In this document: piece by piece, positions 43,229 through 63,618 of the stretch | Numbering within the stretch: the stretch's first letter is position 1 | Layout: every line of letters begins with the position of its first letter | From: a virus | Length of the DNA: 64,000 bases | UHGV virus genome: UHGV-0171999 | Reading direction: 5' to 3' (one strand) | The notes under the pieces: generated by a model | Seen by the model: the letters and a program-made list of their open reading frames with translations, nothing else | What the model was told of the DNA's origin: nothing | Database searches by the model: none | Made by a program: the position numbers and the translations under genes

Positions 43229-43258
43229 GTTTACACGTTGATGAGGTAGTGATACTAT
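43229..43258 (+). promoter_or_regulatory. T4-type early promoter upstream of ipI
   Basis: -35 GTTTAC at 43229-43234, 18 nt spacer, -10 TACTAT at 43253-43258. Confidence 0.6.
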
Positions 43259-43288
43259 TATCTCATCAAAATTAATTAGGAAAATAAA

Positions 43289-43575
43289 ATGAAAACTTTC
43301 AAAGAATTTACTTCTACAACTACCCCGGTTTCTACTATTACTGAAGCTACTCTTACTTCTGAAGTTATTAAAGCAAATAAAGGACGAGAAGGTAAACCAA
43401 TGATTAGTTTGGTTGATGGTGAAGAAATCAAAGGTACTGTTTACCTAGGCGATGGATGGTCTGCTAAAAGGATGGTGCTACAATCGTTATCTCTCCTGCT
43501 GAAGAAACTGCGTTGTTTAAAGCTAAACACATTTCTGCGGCACATCTCAAGATTATTGCTAAAAATCTTTTGTAA
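43289..43575 (+). pseudogene. ipI: internal protein I (IPI) gene interrupted by a 1-nt frameshift in an A-run
   Basis: N-terminal capsid targeting sequence MKTFKEFTSTTTPVSTITE; frame changes at 43466-43470 (AAAAG); the +2 frame continues ...DGATIVISPAEETALFKAKHISAAHLKIIAKNLL to TAA at 43573; restoring one A gives a 95-aa protein. Confidence 0.7.
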
Positions 43576-43593: not shown

Positions 43594-43623
43594 GTTTACA
43601 TAGGGTTTTAGTTGTGATACTAT
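43594..43623 (+). promoter_or_regulatory. T4-type early promoter
   Basis: -35 GTTTAC at 43594-43599, 18 nt spacer, -10 TACTAT at 43618-43623. Confidence 0.6.
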
Positions 43624-43651
43624 TACCCTATCAACTACCGAGGAGAATAAA

Positions 43652-43837
43652 ATGAAACGTTGTGAATTAATTCGAAATGTTGCTATTGCAATTTCTGCTT
43701 CTGCTTTTAGTTTTTCAATGTTTGTTGGATTTATATGCGGATTATTAACTACAGCAGAAAACGTTTTTTCACTTGTAGTAGCATTTTTAATTGGTTTAAT
43801 TGCTATCGTTATGGATAAAATTTCTAAAGGTGAATAG
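43652..43837 (+). CDS. small hydrophobic membrane protein
   Basis: 61 aa; GAGGAG RBS; two predicted transmembrane segments. Confidence 0.6.
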   Translation: MKRCELIRNVAIAISASAFSFSMFVGFICGLLTTAENVFSLVVAFLIGLIAIVMDKISKGE

Positions 43838-44606: not shown

Positions 44607-44679
44607 TGGGAATTAGCCAAGTTGGTAAGGCACTGGATTTTGATTCCAGGATGCAAAGGTTCGAGTCCTTTATTCCCAG
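44607..44679 (+). tRNA. tRNA-Gln (anticodon UUG), no encoded CCA
   Basis: Cloverleaf folded by hand: acceptor TGGGAAT/ATTCCCA, anticodon loop TTTTGAT, T-arm GGTTCGAGTCC. Confidence 0.8.
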
Positions 44680-44680
44680 C

Positions 44681-44767
44681 GCGAGAATGGTCAAATTGGT
44701 AAAGGCACAGCACTTAAAATGCTGCGGAATGATTTCCTTGTGGGTTCGAGTCCCACTTCTCGCACCA
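44681..44767 (+). tRNA. tRNA-Leu (anticodon UAA), long variable arm, CCA encoded
   Basis: Acceptor GCGAGAA/TTCTCGC, anticodon loop CTTAAAA, T-loop TTCGAGT, 3' ACCA. Confidence 0.8.
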
Positions 44768-44772
44768 AATTT

Positions 44773-44846
<74 letters not shown>

Positions 44847-44856
44847 ATTTAATTTA

Positions 44857-44931
44857 CTCCGTGTAGCTCAATGGCAGAGCGATCGCCTGTTAAGCGATTG
44901 GTTATAGGTTCGAATCCTATCACGTCCGCCA
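44857..44931 (+). tRNA. tRNA-like gene with anticodon GUU (Asn-type), acceptor stem only 4 of 7 bp paired
   Basis: D-arm GCTC-AATGGCA-GAGC, anticodon arm ATCGC-CTGTTAA-GCGAT, T-arm ATAGG-TTCGAAT-CCTAT, 3' GCCA; 5' CTCCGTG pairs poorly with 3' CACGTCC. Confidence 0.45.
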
Positions 44932-44935
44932 AATC

Positions 44936-45011
44936 CGAGGCATAGCTCAGAAGGAAGAGCAAGGACCTTCTAAGTCCTAGGTCGTAGGTTCGATCCCTAC
45001 TGCCTCGACCA
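44936..45011 (+). tRNA. tRNA-Arg (anticodon UCU), CCA encoded
   Basis: Acceptor CGAGGCA/TGCCTCG, anticodon loop CTTCTAA, T-loop TTCGATC. Confidence 0.8.
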
Positions 45012-45027
45012 ATTAAGTGAGGAAAAT

Positions 45028-45378
45028 ATGAAAGGTAATGTTTATTTAGTAGTTCATGATTTAACGTTCTATTTTAATCACAATGACACTGTTATTTCTG
45101 AACGTGTAATTAATTTGCTTTATCAGCATGCAGATTATGTTTATGTCGAAAACGAATATGGTCATTGGCAATTTCTCAAAAATCGTTCATTTGGTTTAGA
45201 TGGTTACGAATACTTTGAACGTAAAGACCTTTTAGATAAAATTCCGTTATCTACACAATATCAAAATCATAAGTCTTTATATAAATGCCGTCCAATTCGA
45301 AATGCTGAATCCGCGTATGAAGCAATTGATTTATGGCGTAAACGCCGTGAACAGATTGATTCTTTAAAAGAATATTAA
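45028..45378 (+). CDS. hypothetical protein within the tRNA region
   Basis: 116 aa ORF with GAGG RBS directly after tRNA-Arg. Confidence 0.6.
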   Translation: MKGNVYLVVHDLTFYFNHNDTVISERVINLLYQHADYVYVENEYGHWQFLKNRSFGLDGYEYFERKDLLDKIPLSTQYQNHKSLYKCRPIRNAESAYEAIDLWRKRREQIDSLKEY

Positions 45379-45380
45379 GA

Positions 45381-45690
45381 AACCGGGTCGCTACCGGTAA
45401 GTCGTCGGACTGATGTTCCCTGCGTAAGGACTGGCATTAACAAATCTTTACGATCTGTTAATGTCCCCTTACATCACAGCAGAAACGGCGCACAGAATTA
45501 TCGATTCGAGGAAATATCTTTGCCGTAAGCCGAGTAGCGTTTTTGACGGAACGTTCGGATATGGTCGAGATATGGCCTTTTAAAAATATTGAGTAGCGTC
45601 AACTGCTTAATAACCGGGTTCGAATCCCGGCGTTTCGTACAAACACTTGCCTTAGCAGGTGGAACCCCGACAAGGTTGCCGCAAGGCTTA
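45381..45690 (+). ncRNA. structured non-coding region, candidate small stable RNAs (T4 species 1/2-like)
   Basis: No plus-strand ORF over 310 bp; several hairpins; tRNA-like T-arm CCGGGTTCGAATCCCGG; ends at a terminator. Confidence 0.35.
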
Positions 45691-45717
45691 GCCCCGACCA
45701 AAAGGTTGGGGCTTTTT
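45691..45717 (+). terminator. rho-independent terminator closing the tRNA/small RNA unit
   Basis: GCCCCGACC-AAAA-GGTTGGGGC hairpin followed by TTTTT. Confidence 0.7.
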
Positions 45718-45850
45718 GGTATCTAGGCCTTTCTGGACCTCTCTAGGCATCATTTAGTTTCTACCCTTTATAATATATTATCCTATCCTTTAATTGCCCC
45801 TTTCATCCCTAGAATTCCCTAAAACTTTTTAAAAAATTTTTCACAAAACT

Positions 45851-45923: not shown

Positions 45924-46187
45924 ATGGATAATTACGGCGAACTGTTCAACTTCTTTATGAAATGCGTTTCAGAAGATTTCGGTCGTACAGTGAATGATAT
46001 TAAAGTTATCGGTCCTGACCATCCGATGTTTGAAACTTACGCAGTAATGGGTAATGAAGATGGTCAGTGGTATACTGTAAAGGTTGTGATTAACATGTTC
46101 ACTGCTGAAGGTTATGTTAAACTGTCTTCTAAAGTTTACCATGATAACGACGAAATCGCAGAAGAATATTTCAATAATATGAAATAA
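45924..46187 (+). CDS. hypothetical protein
   Basis: 87 aa from ATG at 45924 with GGAG RBS; ORF-track start 45912 is TTG. Confidence 0.6.
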   Translation: MDNYGELFNFFMKCVSEDFGRTVNDIKVIGPDHPMFETYAVMGNEDGQWYTVKVVINMFTAEGYVKLSSKVYHDNDEIAEEYFNNMK

Positions 46188-46224
46188 GTTTACATAGGCT
46201 CATGATTGAGATATTATGAGCCTA
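46188..46224 (+). promoter_or_regulatory. early promoter embedded in a 9-bp stem-loop
   Basis: -35 GTTTAC at 46188-46193, -10 TATTAT at 46212-46217; hairpin TAGGCTCAT...ATGAGCCTA spans 46195-46224. Confidence 0.5.
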
Positions 46225-46291
46225 TAACTTGATGATAGAGTATAATACTACTTTTACGGATTTTAAATCTTAATCAACCTAAGGAAATACT

Positions 46292-46885
46292 ATGAACACA
46301 CTGAAGAAAATTGTTGAGTTTATTCGCACTAAACTTGGTTCTGCTATGGCTAAAAATTTATCTGTTGAAGAACAGTATACTGCTGCAGCAGCAAAACTAC
46401 TTGATAAAATTAAAGACCTAAAAACTGCTTCTGTTAAATCTATTAATGAAGAAAAACGTATTCGTGAACTTATTGTCGAAAAGAATCGACAGGCCGAATC
46501 AAAAGAGCGTGAAATTCGCAAGCTTCTTTCCGAAGGTCAAGATGTAACAATGCATGCTAAACTCGGCTTGCTATATCGTCGAACAGCTGAGCAGTTGACT
46601 ACTAAAGCTGATGGTTATGCTGAAATGCGAATTGAAATCGCCAAGAAAGTAGTTGAATTGGATGATGCTCGCCAAGAACTTGCAGTTAAATTGGAATATA
46701 TCCGTGAAACTCGTGCAGCAAATGCCCTTGGAATTAGTACTGCTGATGATGTAGTTGAAATTGCAGCGCTGACTAAGGTTGATATTGAAGATACTCTTGC
46801 TCGAGTTGAAACCTTTAATGGCAATATTTCTGGGGTTGAAACTACCTCTGCCGATGTTCAGGAATATATTAATTCTTTGAAATAA
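46292..46885 (+). CDS. coiled-coil protein, possibly PspA/IM30-like
   Basis: 197 aa; N-terminal amphipathic segment followed by long charged heptad-rich helices. Confidence 0.5.
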
Positions 46886-47893: not shown

Positions 47894-48237
47894 ATAAAGT
47901 CAAATATTCGTTTCCTGAGGCACTATTAATTCTTGCTGTGTCAGTATTTGCAGCTCTTGCAGGTAGTTTTATTGGATTAATGATTGACTGTATTATTTTA
48001 AACATCGATGGTTCAGCGATTATAACAGAGGTTTGGAGTGAACTTCGTTTTACTATAGCGATTACATTATTTTCATTCTTTGGCACCATGTTATATTTTC
48101 ATTATGATAATTTTAAAATAAATTGGCAAAGAAAAAAGGATTACAAAATACAATTAAAAGAATATAATAGCTATATGTCTTATATTGAAAATGAATCAAT
48201 GAAAGAGTTTGTGAGTGATTGTAGGAAAATCGGATGA
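47875..48237 (+). CDS. small membrane protein, C-terminal FVSDCRK motif
   Basis: 120 aa; two hydrophobic segments. Confidence 0.6.
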   Translation: MQKPKLNKVKYSFPEALLILAVSVFAALAGSFIGLMIDCIILNIDGSAIITEVWSELRFTIAITLFSFFGTMLYFHYDNFKINWQRKKDYKIQLKEYNSYMSYIENESMKEFVSDCRKIG

Positions 48238-48722
48238 TTTTAAAAACTCGCTGGTATGATTTAGATGATGGGGATGATGGCATTCCAGTTGATAGAGTTG
48301 ACTGGAATGGCTGTTCCGAAGATATGAAAAATTTGTTGATTAGGGAGTTTAGAATGGGATATCAACCAGTTAAGCCATCTACTATAACAGATGATAAATT
48401 CGTGTGTATTCAAAATGGCCGCGCTAAGTTAACGAATGCTGATTGGTTTACAAATAAGATTATGATTCTGTGGTATATCATTAGTCTTCCTGTGACATCA
48501 TTTGTATTTTGCTTCTTTGGAGAAAGTCCAGTAGGCAGAATGGGAGATTGGATTCTTTTAATCATACTTGTTAATATTTTGACAGCAGCAATACTATCAG
48601 GAATATGGTGTGTGTTCATCGAAATGCCATGGCGGTTACGTAAGCAGCAAAAGATTTTTGATGAAAAGAAATATACTCAAAATTTAAATAACTTTATCAC
48701 TGAATGCAGGAAATTAAAATGA
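48234..48722 (+). CDS. membrane protein, C-terminal FITECRK motif
   Basis: 162 aa; hydrophobic segments; ATG overlaps upstream stop (ATGA). Confidence 0.6.
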   Translation: MILKTRWYDLDDGDDGIPVDRVDWNGCSEDMKNLLIREFRMGYQPVKPSTITDDKFVCIQNGRAKLTNADWFTNKIMILWYIISLPVTSFVFCFFGESPVGRMGDWILLIILVNILTAAILSGIWCVFIEMPWRLRKQQKIFDEKKYTQNLNNFITECRKLK

Positions 48723-49159: not shown

Positions 49160-49962
<803 letters not shown>

Positions 49963-49963
49963 T

Positions 49964-49993
49964 GTTTACTTCCTCCAAGGACTTTGATACTAT
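49964..49993 (+). promoter_or_regulatory. T4-type early promoter of denV inside a 10-bp stem-loop
   Basis: -35 GTTTAC at 49964-49969, -10 TACTAT at 49988-49993; TTCCTCCAAG at 49970-49979 pairs with CTTGGAGGAA at 50007-50016 (includes the RBS). Confidence 0.6.
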
Positions 49994-50020
49994 ACATTCA
50001 TCAACTACTTGGAGGAAATT

Positions 50021-50434
50021 ATGACTCGTATCAATTTAACACTTGTTTCTGAATTGACCGACCAACATCTTATGGCTGAGTATCGTGAATTACCACGCGT
50101 ATTTGGTGTAGTTCGTAAACATGTTCAAAACGGTAAACGTGTAAAGGATTTTAAAATCTCTCCAACATTTATCTTAGGCACAGGTCACGTAACATTCTTT
50201 TACGACAAACTCGAATTTTTACGTTTACGTCAAATCGAGCTAATCACTGAATGCTTGAAACGTGGTTTCAAAATCAAGGACACGACTGTCCAGGATATTT
50301 CCGACATCCCTGCCGAATTTCGTAATAATTATGTCCCGTCCGAAGCGTCCATTGCGATAAGTCAAGCACGCTTAGATGAAAAAATTGCTCAACGTCCTAC
50401 TTGGTACAAATACTATGGTAAATCAATCTACTAA
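50021..50434 (+). CDS. denV: endonuclease V, pyrimidine dimer DNA glycosylase
   Basis: 137 aa from ATG at 50021; [29 protein letters not shown]... as T4 endonuclease V. Confidence 0.9.
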
Positions 50435-50440
50435 GGAAAA

Positions 50441-50701
50441 ATGAAAATGTATCAAGAATTTATCATTGAAGCAGATGCCAAAGGTCCTAAATTTAAAGTT
50501 AAAGCTTTCATTGGTGATGCGGAAGACTTTGGCTCATTAAAACGTAATGGGTATTTTTTCTTAGGTGGCGATGGTAAAGAAATCAACACCTATGCAAAAC
50601 GTAGTGAAATTGCTTATGTTGTAGCAAGCCCTAAAGTAGATGTTGACGATATTGGATATGATTTTAACAACTTCGGAATTATTTCTGGCGGTAAAGCTTA
50701 A
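50441..50701 (+). CDS. ipII: internal protein II-like (capsid targeting sequence protein)
   Basis: 86 aa; N-terminus MKMYQEFIIEA; position between denV and ipIII. Confidence 0.65.
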   Translation: MKMYQEFIIEADAKGPKFKVKAFIGDAEDFGSLKRNGYFFLGGDGKEINTYAKRSEIAYVVASPKVDVDDIGYDFNNFGIISGGKA

Positions 50702-50704
50702 ATT

Positions 50705-50734
50705 GTTTACGCTTAAGTATTAATATGGTATAAT
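50705..50734 (+). promoter_or_regulatory. T4-type early promoter upstream of ipIII
   Basis: -35 GTTTAC at 50705-50710, 18 nt spacer, -10 TATAAT at 50729-50734. Confidence 0.6.
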
Positions 50735-50764
50735 TACTCTATCAAAACAAACAAGGAAACAAAA

Positions 50765-51343
50765 ATGAAAACGTATAAAGAATTTATCGCCGAGGCCTTT
50801 GCAGGAAAAGCTCAAGGTATTAATAAGGACGAGTGGACTTATCGTGGTGGAAACGGCTTTGACCCTAAAACTGCTCCACTTGAACGATATCTAGCCACAA
50901 AAGCTTCTGATTTTAAAGCCTTCGCTTGGGAAGGACTTCGCTGGCGTAACGATCTAAATATTGAAGTTGACGGACTTAAATTTGCTCATATTGAAGATGT
51001 TGTTGCTAGTAACTTAGACGCAGCTTTTGTTAAAGCCGACAGTGACCTTCGTCGCTGGAATTTAAAACTGTTCTCTAAACAAAAAGGCCCGAAGTTTGTG
51101 CCTAAAGCAGGTAAATGGGTTATTGATAATAAATTAGCTAAGGCTGTCAACTACGCCGGTCTTGAATTTGCCAAGCATAAATCATCATGGAAAGGTCTTG
51201 ATGCAATGGCTTTCCGTAAAGAATTTGCCGATGTTATGGCTAAAGGCGGCTTTAAGGCAGAAATAGATACCTCTAAAGGTACGTTTAAAGACGCTAATGT
51301 TCAGTACGCTTACGCCGTTGCTAATGCGGCCCGTGGTAATTAA
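50765..51343 (+). CDS. ipIII: internal protein III
   Basis: 192 aa; N-terminus MKTYKEFIAEA targeting sequence; basic; position as in T4. Confidence 0.85.
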   Translation: MKTYKEFIAEAFAGKAQGINKDEWTYRGGNGFDPKTAPLERYLATKASDFKAFAWEGLRWRNDLNIEVDGLKFAHIEDVVASNLDAAFVKADSDLRRWNLKLFSKQKGPKFVPKAGKWVIDNKLAKAVNYAGLEFAKHKSSWKGLDAMAFRKEFADVMAKGGFKAEIDTSKGTFKDANVQYAYAVANAARGN

Positions 51344-51520
51344 TAAGGCCTATACTTAGGCCTATTTACATTCAAATAACATGGGAACAAGCTGGACTTC
51401 ATGATTCTGTGAGGGATTCCCGCCAACCTATAATAAGGTCGAGCCCAAGTGCGGTAATGGGTAAATACAGAAATGGACAATTCATGCGCCATGGAATGGC
51501 CCAAATTTAGAGAGAATAAA

Positions 51521-53517: not shown

Positions 53518-53547
53518 GTTTACTTTTCCTCTTGACTGTGGTATAAT
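53518..53547 (+). promoter_or_regulatory. T4-type early promoter of regB
   Basis: -35 GTTTAC at 53518-53523, 18 nt spacer, -10 TATAAT at 53542-53547; flanking TCCTCTT/AAGAGGA inverted repeat. Confidence 0.6.
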
Positions 53548-53574
53548 TTTTCTATCAGTTAAGAGGAGAATAAC

Positions 53575-54036
53575 ATGACTATCAACACAGAAGTTTTTAT
53601 CCGTCGAAATAAGCTCCGTCGTCACTTTGAGTCGGAGTTTCGTCAAATTAACAATGAGATTCGTGAGGCATCAAAAGCAGCAGGGGTCTCATCGTTTCAT
53701 CTAAAATATTCTCAACATCTTCTTGATCGTGCAATTCAACGGGAGATTGATGAGACATATGTTTTTGAATTATTCCATAAAATAAAAGACCATGTTTTAG
53801 AAGTTAATGAATTCCTGAGTATGCCTCCGCGTCCTGACATTGACGAGGATTTTATCGATGGGGTTGAATATCGTCCTGGGCGTTTAGAAATCACAGATGG
53901 AAATCTTTGGCTTGGATTTACAGTTTGTAAACCTAACGCGAAGTTCAAAGACCCGTCACTTCAATGTAGGATGGCCATTATCAACAGCCGTCGTTTACCA
54001 GGAAAGGCTTCTAAAGCAGTAATTAAAACTCAATGA
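53575..54036 (+). CDS. regB: RegB site-specific endoribonuclease
   Basis: 153 aa; length and position match T4 RegB. Confidence 0.85.
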   Translation: MTINTEVFIRRNKLRRHFESEFRQINNEIREASKAAGVSSFHLKYSQHLLDRAIQREIDETYVFELFHKIKDHVLEVNEFLSMPPRPDIDEDFIDGVEYRPGRLEITDGNLWLGFTVCKPNAKFKDPSLQCRMAIINSRRLPGKASKAVIKTQ

Positions 54037-55589: not shown

Positions 55590-55792
55590 GCCAAACTAGT
55601 ATTCTTAAAAATGCCCATTGTGAAAAGTGTAAATGGCCTGTTGTTTTTGCTTTATGTAATGATGAAATGGCCTGTGATTTCGACTATTGGTGCTATTGTT
55701 CTAATAAAGGATGCATCAATCATAAAGGTGAAGGATTTTATTCAGGATTTTATCCTTATCCTGATTTCGTTAAAGAAGGTAAACCAAAATGA
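55586..55792 (+). CDS. Cys-rich small protein (putative zinc binding)
   Basis: 68 aa from ATG at 55586; CEKC...C...C.C...C pattern. Confidence 0.5.
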   Translation: MSQTSILKNAHCEKCKWPVVFALCNDEMACDFDYWCYCSNKGCINHKGEGFYSGFYPYPDFVKEGKPK

Positions 55793-55962
55793 ATAATTTT
55801 GAGTTACAATATGAAGTGTTACGTGAGCTTGATAATTTAATTGAACTCGCTGTTAATAAAGGTTTTGCCATTGGAATCGGTCAAAAAGATACTGACCATT
55901 TAACTACGGAAATATTTAAGCAAAAGCGAATTATTTTAAAACTCCTGGAAATTAATATATGA
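55789..55962 (+). CDS. hypothetical small protein (57 aa)
   Basis: ATG overlapping upstream stop; below the ORF-track size cutoff. Confidence 0.4.
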   Translation: MNNFELQYEVLRELDNLIELAVNKGFAIGIGQKDTDHLTTEIFKQKRIILKLLEINI

Positions 55963-56144
55963 GTCTAAGTAAAGAACAAAAAGATAAATTGTTTGAGCTT
56001 ATCCATGAACTTCTAGATGAGCATGCAGAAGCAAACACCTTTTATGATGAATACGGCCCGCTATCTCCCGAACAACAAGAAGAATTTGCTGACCGGTTTG
56101 ATAAGAAAGAAAACGAATTAATAGCTTATGTGAATACGCTTTAA
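55959..56144 (+). CDS. hypothetical acidic protein
   Basis: 61 aa ORF just upstream of tk. Confidence 0.5.
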   Translation: MSLSKEQKDKLFELIHELLDEHAEANTFYDEYGPLSPEQQEEFADRFDKKENELIAYVNTL

Positions 56145-56153
56145 GAAGGTGAT

Positions 56154-56735
56154 ATGGCGAGTTTAATTTTTACTTATGCAGCAATGAATGCTGGAAAATC
56201 TGCTTCTCTTTTGACTGCCGCACATAATTATAAAGAACGTGGGATGAGTGTATTAGTTCTTAAGCCTGCTATTGATACTCGCGATTCTGTCTGTGAAGTC
56301 GTTTCTCGCATTGGAATTAAGCAGGAAGCGAATATTATTACGGATGATATGGATATTTTTGAGTTCTATAAATGGGCTGAAGCACAAAAAGATATTCATT
56401 GCGTATTTGTAGATGAAGCTCAATTTTTAAAAACTGAACAGGTGCATCAATTAAGCCGAATTGTTGATACATATAATGTTCCTGTTATGGCTTATGGTCT
56501 AAGGACTGATTTCGCTGGAAAATTATTTGAAGGTTCTAAAGAACTTTTGGCGATTGCAGATAAACTTATTGAACTGAAGGCAGTTTGTCATTGCGGCAAA
56601 AAAGCGATTATGACAGCTCGATTAATGGAAGATGGAACACCAGTTAAAGAAGGTAATCAAATCTGTATTGGTGATGAAATTTATGTTTCTTTGTGTAGAA
56701 AACATTGGAACGAATTAACTAAAAAGCTCGGTTAG
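56154..56735 (+). CDS. tk: thymidine kinase
   Basis: 193 aa; P-loop AAMNAGKSASLL; C-terminal zinc ribbon CHCGKKA...C; length matches T4 Tk. Confidence 0.9.
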   Translation: MASLIFTYAAMNAGKSASLLTAAHNYKERGMSVLVLKPAIDTRDSVCEVVSRIGIKQEANIITDDMDIFEFYKWAEAQKDIHCVFVDEAQFLKTEQVHQLSRIVDTYNVPVMAYGLRTDFAGKLFEGSKELLAIADKLIELKAVCHCGKKAIMTARLMEDGTPVKEGNQICIGDEIYVSLCRKHWNELTKKLG

Positions 56736-57679: not shown

Positions 57680-57684
57680 CATTA

Positions 57685-57706
57685 GTCTCCTTCGGGAGAC
57701 TTTTTT
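57685..57706 (+). terminator. rho-independent terminator
   Basis: GTCTCC-TTCG-GGAGAC hairpin followed by TTTTTT. Confidence 0.7.
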
Positions 57707-57716
57707 CATTTTACCG

Positions 57717-57746
57717 GTTTACTTTCCATTTGAGCTGTGATACTAT
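57717..57746 (+). promoter_or_regulatory. T4-type early promoter
   Basis: -35 GTTTAC at 57717-57722, 18 nt spacer, -10 TACTAT at 57741-57746. Confidence 0.6.
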
Positions 57747-58681: not shown

Positions 58682-58741
58682 TGACAAATGAACAAGCTTT
58701 TAAGTTAAGAGAATTAATTGAAACTTTAATTGGTGAATAAT

Positions 58742-59008
58742 GTGAGCTTTCCGAAATTAGAAGTAGGTGATTTAGTCTTAACAAAATTGTGGAATGATAC
58801 TCAATCAGTAGAAATCTGCCAATATCGTGGAGCAACAGGTAATTTGATGTACACGATTTATAATCCAGAAATTTTGTTAGAGTGTCATTTGGAACGCTTT
58901 ATAAAAGATACTGATAGTATGCCTTATAGTGTATCGATTGTACGTAAATCTAATACGAAGGAATACTCTAAAATTTTAGAACAAATTCATGCCAATAAAA
59001 AGGATTAA
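58742..59008 (+). CDS. hypothetical protein lacking an in-frame ATG (candidate GTG start)
   Basis: ORF-track 58730..59008 starts at TTG; candidate GTG at 58742 with GGTGA RBS; alternatively fused by frameshift to the 19-aa ORF at 58681..58740. Confidence 0.4.
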   Translation: MSFPKLEVGDLVLTKLWNDTQSVEICQYRGATGNLMYTIYNPEILLECHLERFIKDTDSMPYSVSIVRKSNTKEYSKILEQIHANKKD

Positions 59009-59009
59009 T

Positions 59010-59540
59010 ATGAAACGATTAGTATTAGAAGTTAGTCCGCTTTTTGGTGAATTGGCTATAGAAAAAGTAAATAACATGTATCGTTTGACGCAAGAAGACG
59101 ATATGCTATATTTTACGCCTAGTGAAATCATTCATTTAACCCAAATTGAATATCCTTATACCGATAAAATAGTAAGCATTAATGATGAGCATAAAATTCA
59201 TTTTTATTCTTCATGTCCAGGATTTAATATTAAAAGTGAGTCGATGTGTTTATCAGTTATCCATTGGGATAGTTTTATAGATAAGATTAAATATTTTTAT
59301 TATTCTAATGAAAGAAAACATAATTTAAAATGGTTTAAAAATTGCAATGCTATTATTACTAACGCTTGTAATCAAAATTATGAAACTGTTTTAGATGTAT
59401 CAAAATGCTATGAAGAGGGAGATGTCATAACTATTCGTCAATCGGTAAATGATGTTAATGTTGTTGTATTAAACAAAGAAGAAGCTGTTTTATTAAAGAC
59501 TTATCTTGATTCTGTCATTCCAACTATGGTTTCAAAGTGA
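59010..59540 (+). CDS. hypothetical protein, paralog of the following gene
   Basis: 176 aa from ATG at 59010 with AAGGA RBS (ORF-track start 58989); C-terminus resembles the next ORF. Confidence 0.55.
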   Translation: MKRLVLEVSPLFGELAIEKVNNMYRLTQEDDMLYFTPSEIIHLTQIEYPYTDKIVSINDEHKIHFYSSCPGFNIKSESMCLSVIHWDSFIDKIKYFYYSNERKHNLKWFKNCNAIITNACNQNYETVLDVSKCYEEGDVITIRQSVNDVNVVVLNKEEAVLLKTYLDSVIPTMVSK

Positions 59541-59546
59541 GGAAAT

Positions 59547-60068
59547 ATGTTTATTTCAAGTGGAAGCGGTTTAATTCGTGTTGAATTTAAAAATGACATC
59601 TTCCTTATTCAAGGAGATGATATTATTAAAATGAGCTATGATGAAATCAAGAAAATTTGTCATGCTCTTGAAAGTCATGGAAAGGAAAATGCTACTATCG
59701 ATATAGGTGATTTATGGGTGACACTCTATGAAGTATCCGAAGGATTTAACATTGAAGATGAAAACAACATCTTAGCTATTGATAAAAGAAGCGATTTGTT
59801 TGACGTGTTAAAAGTTTATGAACAGTCAAACGATGGAAGAAAAGCTGCATTGATTTATCAAAAACCACATTCATGTGGAACTGCTTCAATCATTTCAGAT
59901 ATTGAAGATGAAACTGATACTTATATGTGTGTTTTAAAAGCTGGTGGTGACCGTCATCCGGATTTTATTTCTATTCGTCAAAACAATGGAGAAATTTCAT
60001 TATCAAAATCAGAAGCTGAAGCTATGATTAAGTATTTAACAACTGTTACACCTTCAATGAAAGGATAA
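59547..60068 (+). CDS. hypothetical protein, paralog of the preceding gene
   Basis: 173 aa; GAGG RBS; C-terminal IRQ...YL..V.P.M motif shared with the preceding ORF. Confidence 0.6.
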   Translation: MFISSGSGLIRVEFKNDIFLIQGDDIIKMSYDEIKKICHALESHGKENATIDIGDLWVTLYEVSEGFNIEDENNILAIDKRSDLFDVLKVYEQSNDGRKAALIYQKPHSCGTASIISDIEDETDTYMCVLKAGGDRHPDFISIRQNNGEISLSKSEAEAMIKYLTTVTPSMKG

Positions 60069-60070
60069 TT

Positions 60071-60532
60071 ATGATTATTAATGAAAGCTCTTGGCACTAT
60101 AAATTATTCAAAATGTTTAACGACGAATGGAAACGACCTAAGACACTGTGCGCGTATTTTTGGTCTATTGTTATCCCTACATTTTTCGTTTCTTTTTTCG
60201 GATGTACTATACTCGCAGGTCTAACTATCATCTGTGCAGAAATCATGCAGAAATGGCTTATTTTTGGTAGTTTATGGACTCTTATTCCAGCAGCATTTAT
60301 ACTTGCCATTTTGCTTGTTTTACTTATTATTGGTTCATTTGTTATTCCTGCACAACTACATGAAAAATATAAAGATTATAAATGGAAAAAGGATTATGCT
60401 TTACATGTAGAAAATATTGATAGGGCGTATAAAGGTTTACCTCCTATTCAACCCAAGAAATCTATTATCATCGAATTTTTAAAAGCGTGTAAAGCTAAAG
60501 TATGTCCTGTTATTGAATATAAGGCTGAATAA
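60071..60532 (+). CDS. membrane protein
   Basis: 153 aa; two long hydrophobic segments; AAGGA RBS. Confidence 0.6.
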   Translation: MIINESSWHYKLFKMFNDEWKRPKTLCAYFWSIVIPTFFVSFFGCTILAGLTIICAEIMQKWLIFGSLWTLIPAAFILAILLVLLIIGSFVIPAQLHEKYKDYKWKKDYALHVENIDRAYKGLPPIQPKKSIIIEFLKACKAKVCPVIEYKAE

Positions 60533-61542: not shown

Positions 61543-61544
61543 TA

Positions 61545-61568
61545 GGGAGCCTTCGGGCTCCCTTTTTT
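61545..61568 (+). terminator. rho-independent terminator
   Basis: GGGAGCC-TTCG-GGCTCCC hairpin followed by TTTTTT. Confidence 0.7.
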
Positions 61569-61593
61569 ATTTCAAAATTTTTTTCACAAAACA

Positions 61594-61623
61594 GTTTACA
61601 AGCATAAAGCTTTATGGTACTAT
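61594..61623 (+). promoter_or_regulatory. T4-type early promoter
   Basis: -35 GTTTAC at 61594-61599, 18 nt spacer, -10 TACTAT at 61618-61623. Confidence 0.6.
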
Positions 61624-61657
61624 ACAACTATCAACTGATACGGATTTGGAGAATAAA

Positions 61658-62626
61658 ATGAAAACTGTAACTATCAATAAGGGTATCTACTTCGGTAAAG
61701 AAATCTCTGGAACTTTTGAGCTCTTAGGCGAATGGTTCCCAGATAATGCTCCGGTAGATGCACAAGGAGATGGTAAAGTTTTTGTTGAAATTGACGGTAA
61801 ACGTCGCGGTGTTTGGGTTTACAAATCAGATATTTCATATGATGGTGTAAAAGTTGAAGAAGTTAAAGAATCATATGAAGATATGAAAACCCGCATTAAT
61901 AAAAGATTTAATGTTATGGGAATGATGACGAATGGTATTATTAACGGAAACATTCGTTCATTAATTATCTCTGGCGCAGCAGGTATTGGTAAAACGTATT
62001 CTTTAGATAAAGCTTTAAATAAAGCAAATGATATTGGATACATTGAATATAAAAGCATTAATGGTAAAATCTCTGGTATTGGTCTTTATGAGCAGCTTTG
62101 GAATAATCGTGAAGAGAATTCTGTCCTTTTGATTGATGATGTGGATGTTTTTTCTGATATGGACATTCTTAATCTTCTAAAAGCCGCTCTGGACACCGGA
62201 GAGACCCGTAAAGTATGCTGGAGCACTGCATCTTCCTACTTAGAAGAAAAAGGTATTGACCGTGAGTTTGAATTTAAAGGAACGATTGTTTTTATCACAA
62301 ACGTTGACATTGACCGCGAATTAGACCGTGGTACTAAACTTGCTCCACACTTACAAGCATTAGTGTCCCGCTCAGTTTATTTGGATTTGGGTGTTCATAC
62401 TAATGAAGAAATTATGGTCAGGGTTGAAGATGTTATTCTTTCAACTGACATGATGCAAAAGCGCGGTCTTTCTGATGAAGAAACTTATAAAGCATTATCA
62501 TGGATGAAAGTTAATGTAAACCGTTTACGCAATGTTTCACTGCGTACTGCTCTTTATCTTGCTGACTTTATTATGACCGACAAAAACGGTTGGGAAGAAA
62601 TTGCTGAGGTTACTCTTCTGAAATAA
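61658..62626 (+). CDS. AAA+ ATPase-like protein
   Basis: 322 aa from ATG at 61658 with GGAG RBS; Walker A GAAGIGKT and Walker B LLIDDVD; ORF-track start 61490 runs through the terminator and promoter. Confidence 0.6.
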   Translation: MKTVTINKGIYFGKEISGTFELLGEWFPDNAPVDAQGDGKVFVEIDGKRRGVWVYKSDISYDGVKVEEVKESYEDMKTRINKRFNVMGMMTNGIINGNIRSLIISGAAGIGKTYSLDKALNKANDIGYIEYKSINGKISGIGLYEQLWNNREENSVLLIDDVDVFSDMDILNLLKAALDTGETRKVCWSTASSYLEEKGIDREFEFKGTIVFITNVDIDRELDRGTKLAPHLQALVSRSVYLDLGVHTNEEIMVRVEDVILSTDMMQKRGLSDEETYKALSWMKVNVNRLRNVSLRTALYLADFIMTDKNGWEEIAEVTLLK

Positions 62627-63032: not shown

Positions 63033-63062
63033 GTTTACAAGACTGTTCCTCTGTGGTACTAT
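63033..63062 (+). promoter_or_regulatory. T4-type early promoter inside a stem-loop
   Basis: -35 GTTTAC at 63033-63038, -10 TACTAT at 63057-63062; CTGTTCCTC at 63044-63052 pairs with GAGGAACAG at 63070-63078 (RBS in 3' arm). Confidence 0.6.
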
Positions 63063-63090
63063 ACAACTATCAACTACGGAGGAACAGAAA

Positions 63091-63618
63091 ATGAACGCTA
63101 AAGATATTTTCAACTTGGTAAATTACAACGATGGTAAATTTAAATCTGAAGCACAAAGCAAGTTCTTTAATGACATCTCAATCGGAGGTGAAATCACTGT
63201 TGATGGAGGACAAATTTACAAATCACGTTGGAATTGGATCGTTATTATCGATGAGATTGGTATTGTAGAAATTTACAAGAATACGAATAAAAATCGTACA
63301 TTACACTGGTCTCGTGATACTAACGAACAGTATAAAAAGGATAAAGCATCTAAATTATCTCGTGTAACTCAAGAAGATATTGAGTTCATCAAGAAAGATA
63401 TTTTAATGTATGATAACTTAATTGCTGAAGAGCAAGCTGTTATTGATAAATTTGATGAGATTAAAGCTTCTCGTGAAATTCCTGATTTTATGAAAGAATC
63501 AGTAAATGAACGATACACTCTCATTTCAGAGCGTATTGAAACTTACAAAAAGCAAAGAGCTGAACGCCAAAATACTCTTCGGAAGTTTGAAGAACGGTTA
63601 AAGACGGTACTCGCATAA
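63091..63618 (+). CDS. hypothetical protein
   Basis: 175 aa; GGAGG RBS. Confidence 0.55.
   Translation: MNAKDIFNLVNYNDGKFKSEAQSKFFNDISIGGEITVDGGQIYKSRWNWIVIIDEIGIVEIYKNTNKNRTLHWSRDTNEQYKKDKASKLSRVTQEDIEFIKKDILMYDNLIAEEQAVIDKFDEIKASREIPDFMKESVNERYTLISERIETYKKQRAERQNTLRKFEERLKTVLA

What the first reader, a model, noticed from the sequence alone, without database searches (positions are those of the whole stretch)
49964..50020. Early promoters embedded in stem-loops whose 3' arm is the downstream RBS
At denV the -35 and -10 lie inside a 10-bp inverted repeat (TTCCTCCAAG...CTTGGAGGAA) whose 3' arm contains the ribosome binding site. Similar arrangements occur at 43241-43268, 43604-43630, 46195-46224, 53524-53568 and 63044-63078. 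This matches the promoter-early-stem-loop cassettes described in T4-type phages (attributed from memory to Arbiol et al. 2010) as recombination modules flanking shuffled accessory genes; the genes between them are candidate horizontally exchanged cargo.
Basis: partly seen in the sequence, partly recalled or inferred. Interest (0 to 1): 0.5.

Follow-up and report, generated by a model that had tools for sequence, protein, structure and literature searches.

The report
Early promoters inside ribosome-site-masking hairpins
In this T4-like phage several early promoters sit inside conserved hairpins, and at three genes (denV, regB, nrdC.8) the hairpin should hide the ribosome binding site on RNA arriving from upstream but not on RNA started at the gene's own promoter, an early-promoter version of a switch already known for T4 lysozyme.

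Summary
The window is a Tequatrovirus (T4-like phage) with its early genes on the + strand. The inverted repeats are real and far from chance, but they were mis-described. The -35 lies just outside the repeat. The 5' arm fills the promoter spacer and the -10 sits in the loop. The 3' arm is the ribosome site at only three of the six sites: denV, regB and nrdC.8. A seventh hairpin, at mobD.2, was missed.

Because the predicted start site lies 3' of the 5' arm, only read-through RNA can form the hairpin. The predicted cost of opening the ribosome site is 12-22 kcal/mol on read-through RNA and 3-5 on the gene's own transcript. The proven lysozyme (e) hairpin in the same window gives 13-15 and 2-4.

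The design is kept in 29 of 29 denV and 29 of 31 regB upstream regions from diverged T4-like phages, with compensatory arm changes. Wobble pairs fall almost only on the sense strand, which points to an RNA structure.

The promoter-early-stem-loop (PeSL) reading is only partly right. Some gene swaps end in these cassettes, but no more often than at other gene junctions. The arms are the variable part, and none looks like a terminator.

Verdict: new members of the known T4 class of translational switch in which a promoter sits inside a hairpin. No experiment has tested this. Moderate interest.

The parts
49964..50023 (+). denV cassette: -35 49964-69; anti-SD 5' arm 49970-79 (in the spacer); TGn-10 49985-93; predicted +1 about 50000; SD 3' arm 50008-17; ATG 50021
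   Evidence: MFE -17.8, z -5.2; opening cost 12.0 on read-through RNA, 3.0 on the own transcript
53518..53577 (+). regB cassette: -35 53518-23; 5' arm 53524-38; -10 53542-47; predicted +1 about 53554; SD 3' arm 53556-70; ATG 53575
   Evidence: MFE -22.4, z -5.8; opening cost 12.2 and 4.4. Identical in T4.
63033..63093 (+). nrdC.8 cassette: -35 63033-38; 5' arm 63043-57; -10 63057-62; predicted +1 about 63069; SD 3' arm 63073-87; ATG 63091
   Evidence: MFE -23.2, z -6.3; opening cost 22.0 and 5.4
43229..43291 (+). ipI-like internal-protein promoter with a non-SD hairpin: arms 43238-48 / 43259-69, TGn-10 in the loop, SD at about 43279, ATG 43289
   Evidence: z -4.2. SD accessibility is unchanged.
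43594..43654 (+). trna.4 promoter with a weaker non-SD hairpin: ATAGGGT 43600-06 / ACCCTAT 43625-31
   Evidence: z -2.1, marginal. Orthologues keep a hairpin with different arms.
46188..46292 (+). Promoter upstream of e.6 (homologous to the T4 e.7 promoter) with a 13-bp non-SD hairpin at 46194-46206 / 46213-46225. It is followed by a degenerate second -10 (TATAAT 46241-46) and the e.6 leader.
   Evidence: z -5.0
   Evidence: MFE -19.0, z -4.25
49162..49198 (+). Gene e (lysozyme) hairpin at 49166-76 / 49185-95 with late promoters TATAAATA at 49162-69 and 49175-82. This is the experimentally established prototype, used here as a positive control.
   Evidence: PMC3014915 section 29
57684..57746 (+). 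Canonical terminator (UUCG loop plus U-run, 57684-57701) immediately upstream of early promoter P9 (57717). This is a Comeau-2014-type PeSL with no embedded repeat.
61544..61623 (+). Canonical terminator 61544-61563 upstream of early promoter P11 (61594). No embedded repeat. Insertions in relatives map here.

Best explanation
These are sense-strand RNA hairpins that can form only on transcripts reading through an early promoter from upstream. The 5' arm lies in the promoter spacer (or, in some relatives, over the -10/discriminator). That is upstream of the promoter's own start site.

At denV, regB and nrdC.8 the 3' arm is the Shine-Dalgarno sequence. Read-through (polycistronic, delayed-early or middle) RNA therefore carries a masked ribosome site. 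RNA started at the embedded early promoter lacks the 5' arm and is open to ribosomes, and for regB also to RegB self-cleavage.

The expected result is that each such gene is translated essentially only from its own immediate-early promoter. Its synthesis then stops when early promoters are shut off, wherever the cassette sits in the genome. This is the lysozyme (e)/soc/49/I-TevI principle with an early sigma-70 promoter in place of a late one.

Shown here: the structures, their statistics, their conservation and covariation, their strand specificity and the predicted accessibility difference. Inferred: the start sites, the existence and amount of read-through RNA, and the effect on translation.

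The second class (ipI, trna.4, e.6, mobD.2) is also a selected sense-strand structure, but it does not touch the SD. Its role is unresolved. It could be a decay or processing barrier or a 3'-end protector for the upstream cistron.
For: (1) Non-random pairing in the window. z is -4.2 to -6.3, spacer shuffles give 0 of 300, and spacer swapping gives 0 of 20000.

(2) Geometry. The 5' arms lie at -29 to -16 relative to +1, so any plausible start site excludes them.

(3) Predicted cost of opening SD..AUG, read-through RNA then own transcript. denV 12.0 and 3.0, regB 12.2 and 4.4, nrdC.8 22.0 and 5.4 kcal/mol. P(SD unpaired) is 0.00-0.01 and 0.40-0.47. The validated e hairpin in the same window gives 13-15 and 1.7-3.8, and the review reports a 100-fold translational effect for e.

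(4) Conservation. The SD pairs with a segment 5' of the predicted start site in 29 of 29 distinct denV and 29 of 31 distinct regB upstream regions. These come from T4-like phages whose proteins are down to about 52-60% identical. The median opening cost is about 11.7, against about 0.4 from the start site.

(5) Covariation. Own promoter with own leader duplexes are -17.5 and -15.6 kcal/mol, against -11.5 and -9.8 for cross-pairings (0 of 20000 each). In a GGAG-anchored alignment the five variable inner pairs show 3-4 Watson-Crick types each. They are 85% paired, against 27-52% when slid and 53 +/- 3% when shuffled.

(6) Strand specificity. Non-Watson-Crick positions inside the repeats are G.T on the sense strand 43-73 times and A.C 3-17 times (p <= 2e-9). 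With unique arm pairs the counts are 10 and 1 (SD class) and 23 and 3 (non-SD class).

(7) Generality. In T4 itself 9 of 30 early promoters scanned have the SD type (motB.2, mrh.2, nrdC.8, regB, denV, alt.-3, 30.8, alc, ndd.4).

(8) Alternative solutions. Where denV has no promoter of its own (marine relatives), or has a terminator-plus-promoter composite (jumbo phages), the SD hairpin is absent.

(9) Literature. regB is described as needing tight control and as made only from an early promoter that shuts off at 2-3 min. Transcripts starting at the denV promoter are seen by primer extension.
Against: There is no experimental test for these genes. Start sites are inferred from the T4 early consensus, not mapped here.

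The upstream stop codons lie only 7-12 nt before the 5' arms. Terminating ribosomes could therefore open the hairpin and couple translation rather than silence it, although the e hairpin has the same 6-nt geometry and is inhibitory.

Five of 12 early promoters in the window have no hairpin, and four have hairpins that do not touch the SD. SD masking therefore cannot be the whole story.

The 2010 T4 reviews (PMC3014915, PMC2988021) do not mention such control at regB or denV. This may mean it was never tested, or that it was tested without effect.

The sequences in the covariation tests are phylogenetically related.
Confidence: 0.6

Rival explanations
1. PeSL reading. The promoter-plus-stem-loop cassettes are mainly recombination modules, and their stem-loops are terminators or attenuators. 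Homologous exchange between cassettes shuffles the accessory genes between them.
For: The concept is published for T4-type phages.

Several events in the window have ends inside the cassettes. The IP body is swapped between 43310-23 and 43611. e.7/ORF130 is gained or lost within 46187-46275. Breaks lie at 49963, 50753 and 50787 around denV and ipIII. Insertions lie at 61559-61664.

denV is absent from PST. A 1.8-kb block carrying denV is 96-100% identical to a Mosigvirus while its flanks are 57-82% identical.
Against: Breakpoints are not enriched at promoter junctions relative to other gene junctions (P = 0.15-0.32).

The borders of the exchanged block lie inside gene e and at a terminator, not at the repeats.

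The arms differ between cassettes and co-vary with each gene's own leader. The shared homology is the promoter consensus and the IP leader codons, not the stems.

No U-tract follows any embedded hairpin, and the terminator scan picks up none of them.

The sense-strand G.U bias argues for an RNA function.
Confidence: 0.2
2. Translational coupling device. On read-through RNA the hairpin keeps the downstream SD closed until a ribosome finishing the upstream ORF melts the 5' arm. The downstream gene is then translated in proportion to its upstream neighbour rather than being silenced.
For: The upstream stop codons end 7, 8 and 12 nt before the 5' arms of denV, regB and nrdC.8. For denV this is within reach of a terminating ribosome.
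Against: The e hairpin has the same spacing (6 nt after the nudE stop) and is experimentally inhibitory.

The upstream neighbour of denV differs between phages (ipII in T4, an IP-like ORF here, others elsewhere), yet the hairpin stays tied to the promoter and not to the ORF end.

Stems of 13-15 bp reach well beyond a ribosome's footprint.
Confidence: 0.12
3. The hairpins mainly control RNA decay or processing. They would shield GGAG from RegB, block 5'-to-3' RNase E/G attack, or protect the 3' end of the upstream cistron. Translational gating would not be their main role.
For: RegB is inhibited by secondary structure, and sixteen structured GGAG sites are resistant in vivo.

The non-SD class cannot act on the SD, yet it is conserved and strand-specific.
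Against: For the SD class, masking the SD necessarily blocks 30S binding too, so this reading is additive rather than exclusive.

The RegB resistance of denV was traced to the sequence 3' of GGAG, not to structure.
Confidence: 0.15
4. A DNA-level element: a cruciform, or a palindromic operator for a dimeric protein, at the promoter.
For: The non-SD class is a near-palindrome with a 4-10 nt centre on the extended -10.
Against: Arm sequences differ from promoter to promoter, so there is no common binding site.

Loops of the SD class are 15-30 nt, too long for cruciform extrusion.

The excess of G.T over A.C shows that only one strand is under selection.
Confidence: 0.03

Closest known systems
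T4 inhibitory translation-initiation hairpins with an internal late promoter (genes e, soc, 49, I-TevI)
   Same: The SD and/or AUG is paired with a segment that lies upstream of an internal promoter's start site. Long transcripts are translationally silent and promoter-proximal transcripts are open. The e example is present in this window (49166-49195), and its predicted energetics match those of denV, regB and nrdC.8.
   Different: The embedded promoter here is an early sigma-70-type promoter, and the anti-SD arm occupies its -35/-10 spacer. The temporal logic is reversed: expression is confined to the immediate-early period instead of being delayed to late. There is no experimental proof.
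PeSLs (promoter-early stem-loops) of RB49/phi1, PST/T4 and nt-1/KVP40 (Arbiol 2010; Comeau 2014), and the IP-locus elements of Repoila 1994
   Same: Repeated intergenic cassettes made of an AT-rich upstream region, an early promoter, a stem-loop, an SD and an ATG. They are concentrated in hyperplastic accessory regions, and some indels end in them.
   Different: PeSL stems are described as terminators. They are G-rich and similar between copies in RB49, and lie upstream of the promoter in PST/T4. Here the stems are cassette-specific, lack U-tracts, enclose the -10 and, in one class, are the SD itself. Recombination association is not above background in this window.
RBS-sequestering hairpins of free-standing homing endonuclease genes (Aeh1 mobE; T4 segB)
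   Same: An RNA hairpin masks the ribosome binding site of an accessory gene that is read through from upstream.
   Different: Those hairpins are not described as built from a promoter spacer, and the genes differ.
Classical translational coupling hairpins in polycistronic mRNAs (general knowledge)
   Same: The downstream SD pairs with sequence near the end of the upstream cistron.
   Different: Here the 5' arm tracks the promoter, not the upstream ORF, which varies between phages.

Membership tests
PeSL (Arbiol 2010 / Comeau 2014) | Strong early (sigma-70-type) promoter with an AT-rich upstream region, followed by the SD and ATG of the downstream gene | tested here: met
   Twelve GTTTAC-N18-TAnnnT promoters, mostly with TGn, each with an SD and ATG 55-105 nt downstream of the -35
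PeSL (Arbiol 2010 / Comeau 2014) | Stem-loop within or next to the promoter | tested here: met
   Seven of 12 promoters have a significant hairpin enclosing the -10. This fits Arbiol's 'overlapping -10' subclass but not the 'just upstream of the promoter' placement given for PST/T4. Two further promoters have upstream terminators.
PeSL (Arbiol 2010 / Comeau 2014) | The stem-loop acts as a transcription terminator or attenuator | tested here: inconclusive
   No U-run follows any embedded hairpin, and none is in the terminator scan. Function in vivo cannot be tested here.
PeSL (Arbiol 2010 / Comeau 2014) | Stem sequences similar between copies, giving about 100 bp of shared homology | tested here: not met
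   Promoter consensus and leader motifs are shared, but the arms are different in every cassette
PeSL (Arbiol 2010 / Comeau 2014) | Preferential location at insertion, deletion or replacement boundaries | tested here: inconclusive
   About 5-6 of about 16 events touch a cassette, and 12 of 51 junctions carry one. P = 0.15-0.32.
T4 e-type promoter-in-hairpin translational control | SD and/or start codon paired in a stable helix on long transcripts | tested here: met
   denV, regB and nrdC.8: P(SD unpaired) 0.00-0.01 and opening cost 12-22 kcal/mol
T4 e-type promoter-in-hairpin translational control | The 5' strand of the helix lies upstream of the start site of an internal promoter, so the short transcript cannot form it | tested here: met
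   The 5' arms lie in the -35/-10 spacer. The start site is inferred from the consensus. Own-transcript leaders are weakly folded.
T4 e-type promoter-in-hairpin translational control | The internal promoter is a late (gp55, TATAAATA) promoter | tested here: not met
   The promoters are early type, GTTTAC...TGnTAnnAT. This is why the elements are filed as new members working the same way, not as the same elements.
T4 e-type promoter-in-hairpin translational control | Measured loss of translation from read-through transcripts | not testable with these tools
   Needs reporter or ribosome-profiling experiments
T4 e-type promoter-in-hairpin translational control | Structure conserved in related phages | tested here: met
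   29 of 29 denV and 29 of 31 regB upstream regions, with compensatory changes

The most novel reading that the evidence does not exclude
About a third of Tevenvirinae early promoters may be self-insulating expression cassettes. Each would carry an anti-Shine-Dalgarno sequence written into its -35/-10 spacer. Proteins such as RegB, DenV, Alc, MotB.2 and NrdC.8 would then be translated only from their own immediate-early transcript, whatever the cassette's genomic context.

This would help explain the abrupt stop of early protein synthesis. It would also let accessory genes be shuffled without being mis-expressed. A second, equally conserved class of sense-strand hairpins on the -10 would have a separate RNA-level role that is not yet known.
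Probability: 0.4. Interest if true: 0.55.

Novelty: new member of a known kind. Interest (0 to 1): 0.4.

Why it matters
If the gating works as predicted, it adds a simple rule to the T4 gene-expression programme: for roughly a third of early genes, which promoter made the RNA decides whether the gene is translated.

It would help explain why synthesis of proteins such as the RegB nuclease stops so sharply. That question is described as not completely understood in the 2010 review.

It also suggests why accessory cassettes can move between phages and genomic contexts without losing correct timing.

It offers a compact design for insulated synthetic expression units. It also corrects the common assumption that these stem-loops are terminators.

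Tried and rejected
The generic sigma-70 scan was uninformative (83 sites found, 77.7 expected). It was replaced by a T4-type pattern.

The MAFFT alignments A1 and A2 put the SD and arms out of register. The count of structure pairs was therefore not used. Pair counts were made in Python on a GGAG-anchored alignment, with slid and shuffled controls.

The search for related loci with RegB alone returned only 11 loci. regB orthologues were recovered instead from the denV loci and from annotated genomes.

Rfam matched only the tRNAs.

The terminator reading is disfavoured on sequence grounds, because no U-tract follows the embedded hairpins. The operator and cruciform readings were rejected because the arms vary between promoters and only one strand is under selection.

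Enrichment of breakpoints at promoters was tested and was not significant.

Repoila 1994 and Miller 2003 are not held. My recollection that Valerie et al. 1986 (NAR 14:8637) already noted stem-loops before ipIII, ipII, denV and orf61.9 could not be checked.

Searches for T4 start-site maps found nothing usable.

Full report
Identity of the window. The 48-52 kb stretch is 94-96% identical to many Escherichia and Shigella T4-like phages (Tequatrovirus). Aligned to T4 (NC_000866), window 42-64 kb corresponds to T4 75-53 kb read on the early-gene strand. The gene order is 1, 57A, 57B, ipI-like, trna.4 ... e.8, e.6-e.3, nudE, e, an IP-like ORF, denV, orf86, ipIII, vs.8 ... regB ... tk ... mobD.x ... 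nrdC.11-nrdC.8.

The observation. At denV the sequence reads GTTTAC(-35, 49964-69) | TTCCTCCAAG (49970-79) | ... TGaTACTAT (49985-93) ... | CTTGGAGGAA (50008-17) | ATTATG. The perfect 10-bp repeat is real, and its 3' arm is the Shine-Dalgarno (SD) sequence. The -35 is outside the repeat, the 5' arm is the promoter spacer, and the -10 is in the loop.

A T4-type pattern scan finds 12 early promoters on the + strand between 41.7 and 63.1 kb. Folding from the -35 to the ATG gives strong hairpins between the spacer and the downstream region at seven of them. The z-scores are: denV -5.2, regB -5.8, nrdC.8 -6.3, ipI-like -4.2, e.6 -5.0, mobD.2 -4.25 and trna.4 -2.1. The other five lie between -0.6 and +0.95.

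Shuffling only the spacer gives 0 of 300 for the six strong cases. Exchanging spacers among the 12 promoters gives a mean of -8.2 +/- 1.0 kcal/mol, against the observed -13.8 (0 of 20000).

The 3' arm contains the SD at denV, regB (53556-70) and nrdC.8 (63073-87) only. At 43229, 43594, 46188 and 58519 it is the -10/discriminator/+1 region.

What the geometry implies. T4 early promoters start about 7 nt after the -10. This is established knowledge, and the start sites here are inferred. The predicted +1 positions are about 50000, 53554 and 63069, which lie 20-30 nt downstream of the 5' arms. A transcript started at the embedded promoter therefore cannot form the hairpin. Only RNA coming from upstream can.

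The predicted cost of opening SD..AUG on read-through RNA and on the own transcript is 12.0 and 3.0 (denV), 12.2 and 4.4 (regB), and 22.0 and 5.4 kcal/mol (nrdC.8). The SD is unpaired with probability 0.00-0.01 on read-through RNA and 0.40-0.47 on the own transcript. The own-transcript leaders fold weakly.

The same window contains the classical lysozyme hairpin (49166-76 / 49185-95) with its two late promoters. The same calculation gives 13-15 and 1.7-3.8. For that gene the review by Uzan and Miller reports a 100-fold translational effect and lists e, soc, 49 and I-TevI as the known cases.

[quoted passage not shown] It is 7, 8 and 12 nt for denV, regB and nrdC.8.

Comparative evidence. I collected denV loci from IMG/VR. 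I also took annotated regions of T4, PST, Pu-Krd-SF7, two Mosigvirus genomes and a Jiaodavirus genome.

In all 29 distinct denV upstream regions of T4-like phages the SD is paired with a segment 5' of the predicted start site. The same holds in 29 of 31 distinct regB upstream regions. The arms differ widely while staying complementary. Examples are TTCCTCCAAG/CTTGGAGGAA, TCTCCTGTAG/CTACAGGAGA (T4 itself), CTCCGTTTG/CAAACGGAG and TCTCCTTTTAGTTGTGT/ACACACTAAAAGGAGA.

In some lineages the 5' arm has moved onto the -10/discriminator (for example GATGTCTTCC/GGAGGACATC). That position is still upstream of +1.

An alignment-free test supports covariation. A promoter's own upstream part pairs with its own leader at -17.5 (regB) and -15.6 (denV) kcal/mol. 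With orthologous leaders the values are -11.5 and -9.8 (0 of 20000 permutations each).

In a GGAG-anchored alignment of 30 sequences the 11-bp consensus helix is 88% paired, against 43-52% when slid. The five variable inner pairs each show 3-4 Watson-Crick types. They are 85% paired, against 27-52% when slid and 53 +/- 3% when shuffled (0 of 2000).

Where denV lacks its own promoter (distant marine relatives) there is no hairpin. In jumbo phages denV has a terminator whose stem contains the -35, a true terminator-promoter composite, and again no SD hairpin.

RNA or DNA? I scored the repeats symmetrically for both strands. Internal non-Watson-Crick positions are G.T on the sense strand 43-73 times and A.C 3-17 times (p <= 2e-9). 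With unique arm pairs only, the counts are 10 and 1 for the SD class and 23 and 3 for the non-SD class.

A cruciform or a double-strand binding site would not show this bias. The arms also share no common sequence. Both classes are therefore selected as sense-strand single-stranded structures. Read-through RNA is the obvious candidate.

Loops of the SD class are long (median 21 nt). Those of the non-SD class are short (median 8 nt).

Generality. In 125 kb of T4 early regions, 30 early-type promoters have a gene start within 90 nt. Nine are of the SD type: motB.2, mrh.2, nrdC.8, regB, denV, alt.-3, 30.8, alc and ndd.4. Five carry a strong non-SD hairpin: dmd, mobD.2, ipII, ipI and 30.7.

The PeSL interpretation. 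Arbiol et al. 2010 and Comeau et al. 2014 describe promoter-plus-stem-loop cassettes in T4-type phages. They assign the stem-loop a terminator or attenuator role. They propose that recombination between cassettes shuffles the intervening ORFs. They note that the T-even internal-protein (IP) locus elements are analogues. For PST/T4 the stem-loop is drawn just upstream of the promoter.

In the window that description fits 57684-57701/P9 and 61544-61563/P11, which are UUCG-loop terminators with U-runs. These two promoters have no embedded repeat. The embedded hairpins have no U-tract and are absent from the terminator scan.

Synteny. I compared the window with T4, PST, Pu-Krd-SF7, Lutter and five IMG/VR genomes. 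This gave about 16 distinct indel or replacement events.

Several events end inside cassettes:
- The ipI-type coding body is replaced from the conserved capsid-targeting codons (43310-23) to the spacer of the next promoter (43611).
- The e.7/ORF130 cassette is present or absent, with ends between 46187 and 46275.
- Breaks lie at 49963 (just before the denV -35), at 50753 (ipIII SD) and at 50787 (end of the ipIII leader codons).
- Insertions lie at 61559-61664.

PST has no denV. T4 has the order e-ipIII-ipII-denV, where the window has e-IP-denV-orf86-ipIII.

Other events lie at terminators (45693-45722, 51360-83). Others lie at homing-endonuclease or tRNA regions (44615-45378). Others lie at tight gene junctions (48228-48693, 55590-56154, 58682-59012, 59565-60528).

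With 12 of about 51 junctions carrying an early promoter, 5-6 of 16 events is not a significant excess (P = 0.15-0.32).

A block from about 49560 to 51376 is 96-100% identical to Mosigvirus phi25-307, while its flanks are 57-82% identical. denV and its neighbours are therefore horizontally exchanged cargo. However, the block's borders are inside gene e and at a terminator, with one internal indel at promoter P7.

The shared homology that could mediate exchange is the promoter consensus, the +1 motif ATCAACTAC and the IP leader codons. The arms are the variable part.

Assessment. The best-supported reading is a promoter-gated translational hairpin, for these reasons:
- It has the same architecture and energetics as the proven e case.
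- It is conserved with covariation across genera.
- It is strand-specific.
- It is tied to the presence of the gene's own promoter.
- It fits what is written about regB, which is transcribed from an early promoter shut off at 2-3 min and described as needing tight control.

Neither 2010 review mentions such a hairpin for regB or denV. Durand et al. 2006 worked on the denV SD without discussing it. From memory only, Valerie et al. 1986 noted potential stem-loops before ipIII, ipII, denV and orf61.9. The structures themselves are therefore probably not newly seen.

I file the SD class as new members of the known promoter-in-hairpin translational control. They differ in promoter class and in temporal logic. 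The non-SD class remains functionally unexplained. Nothing here is experimentally tested.

Noticed in passing
window 49560-51376 (compare L094 11601-14605): A block covering the 3' part of gene e, an IP-like ORF, denV, orf86 and ipIII is 96-100% identical to Mosigvirus phi25-307. The flanks are 57-82% identical. This indicates a recent exchange between genera, with borders inside e and at the terminator 51346-63.
   Followed up: partly
window 45690-45722: The intrinsic terminator after the rnaC/rnaD region is an insertion hot spot. Five relatives carry 0.5-1.2 kb inserted here, with 28-36 bp of the terminator repeated on both sides.
   Followed up: partly
window 46226-46275: Downstream of promoter 46188 lies an orphan TATAAT (46241-46) with no -35. 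It resembles the Mosigvirus e.6 promoter and looks like a degraded half-cassette left where T4, Lutter and PST carry e.7 or ORF130.
   Followed up: partly
window 43289-43323 and 50765-50787: The internal-protein genes share near-identical first 8-11 codons (MKTF/YKEF..., the capsid-targeting leader). Replacement breakpoints fall exactly at the end of this leader.
   Followed up: partly
L025, L027, L030, L033 (about 350-kb phages), upstream of denV: An intrinsic terminator whose stem contains the -35 (AAAAGGGTTGAC-TTCG-GTCAGCCCTTTTT) is followed by TATAAT. This is a true terminator-promoter composite, and there is no SD hairpin.
   Followed up: no
T4 NC_000866: gene starts 8161, 15232, 123032, 130253, about 136275, about 166749: motB.2, mrh.2, alt.-3, 30.8, alc and ndd.4 in T4 show the same pairing between promoter spacer and SD as denV, regB and nrdC.8.
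   Followed up: partly
window 50000-50008, 43630-38, 45887-95, 61630-38, 63069-77: Many early promoters share the motif ATCAACTAC at the predicted +1 to +9. It is a conserved transcript 5' end of unknown role.
   Followed up: no
window 48228-48693: A 162-aa ORF (48234-48722) between e.3 and nudE is absent from PST, Pu-Krd-SF7 and one IMG/VR relative. Its ends lie at tight gene junctions with no promoter.
   Followed up: no
window 44607-45008: There is a cluster of five tRNA genes. The region is shorter than in T4 and PST, which carry more tRNAs plus segB.
   Followed up: no
L097 (Yersinia phage PST) 8383-10743: PST has e-ipIII-ipIV-vs.8 and no denV at all.
   Followed up: no
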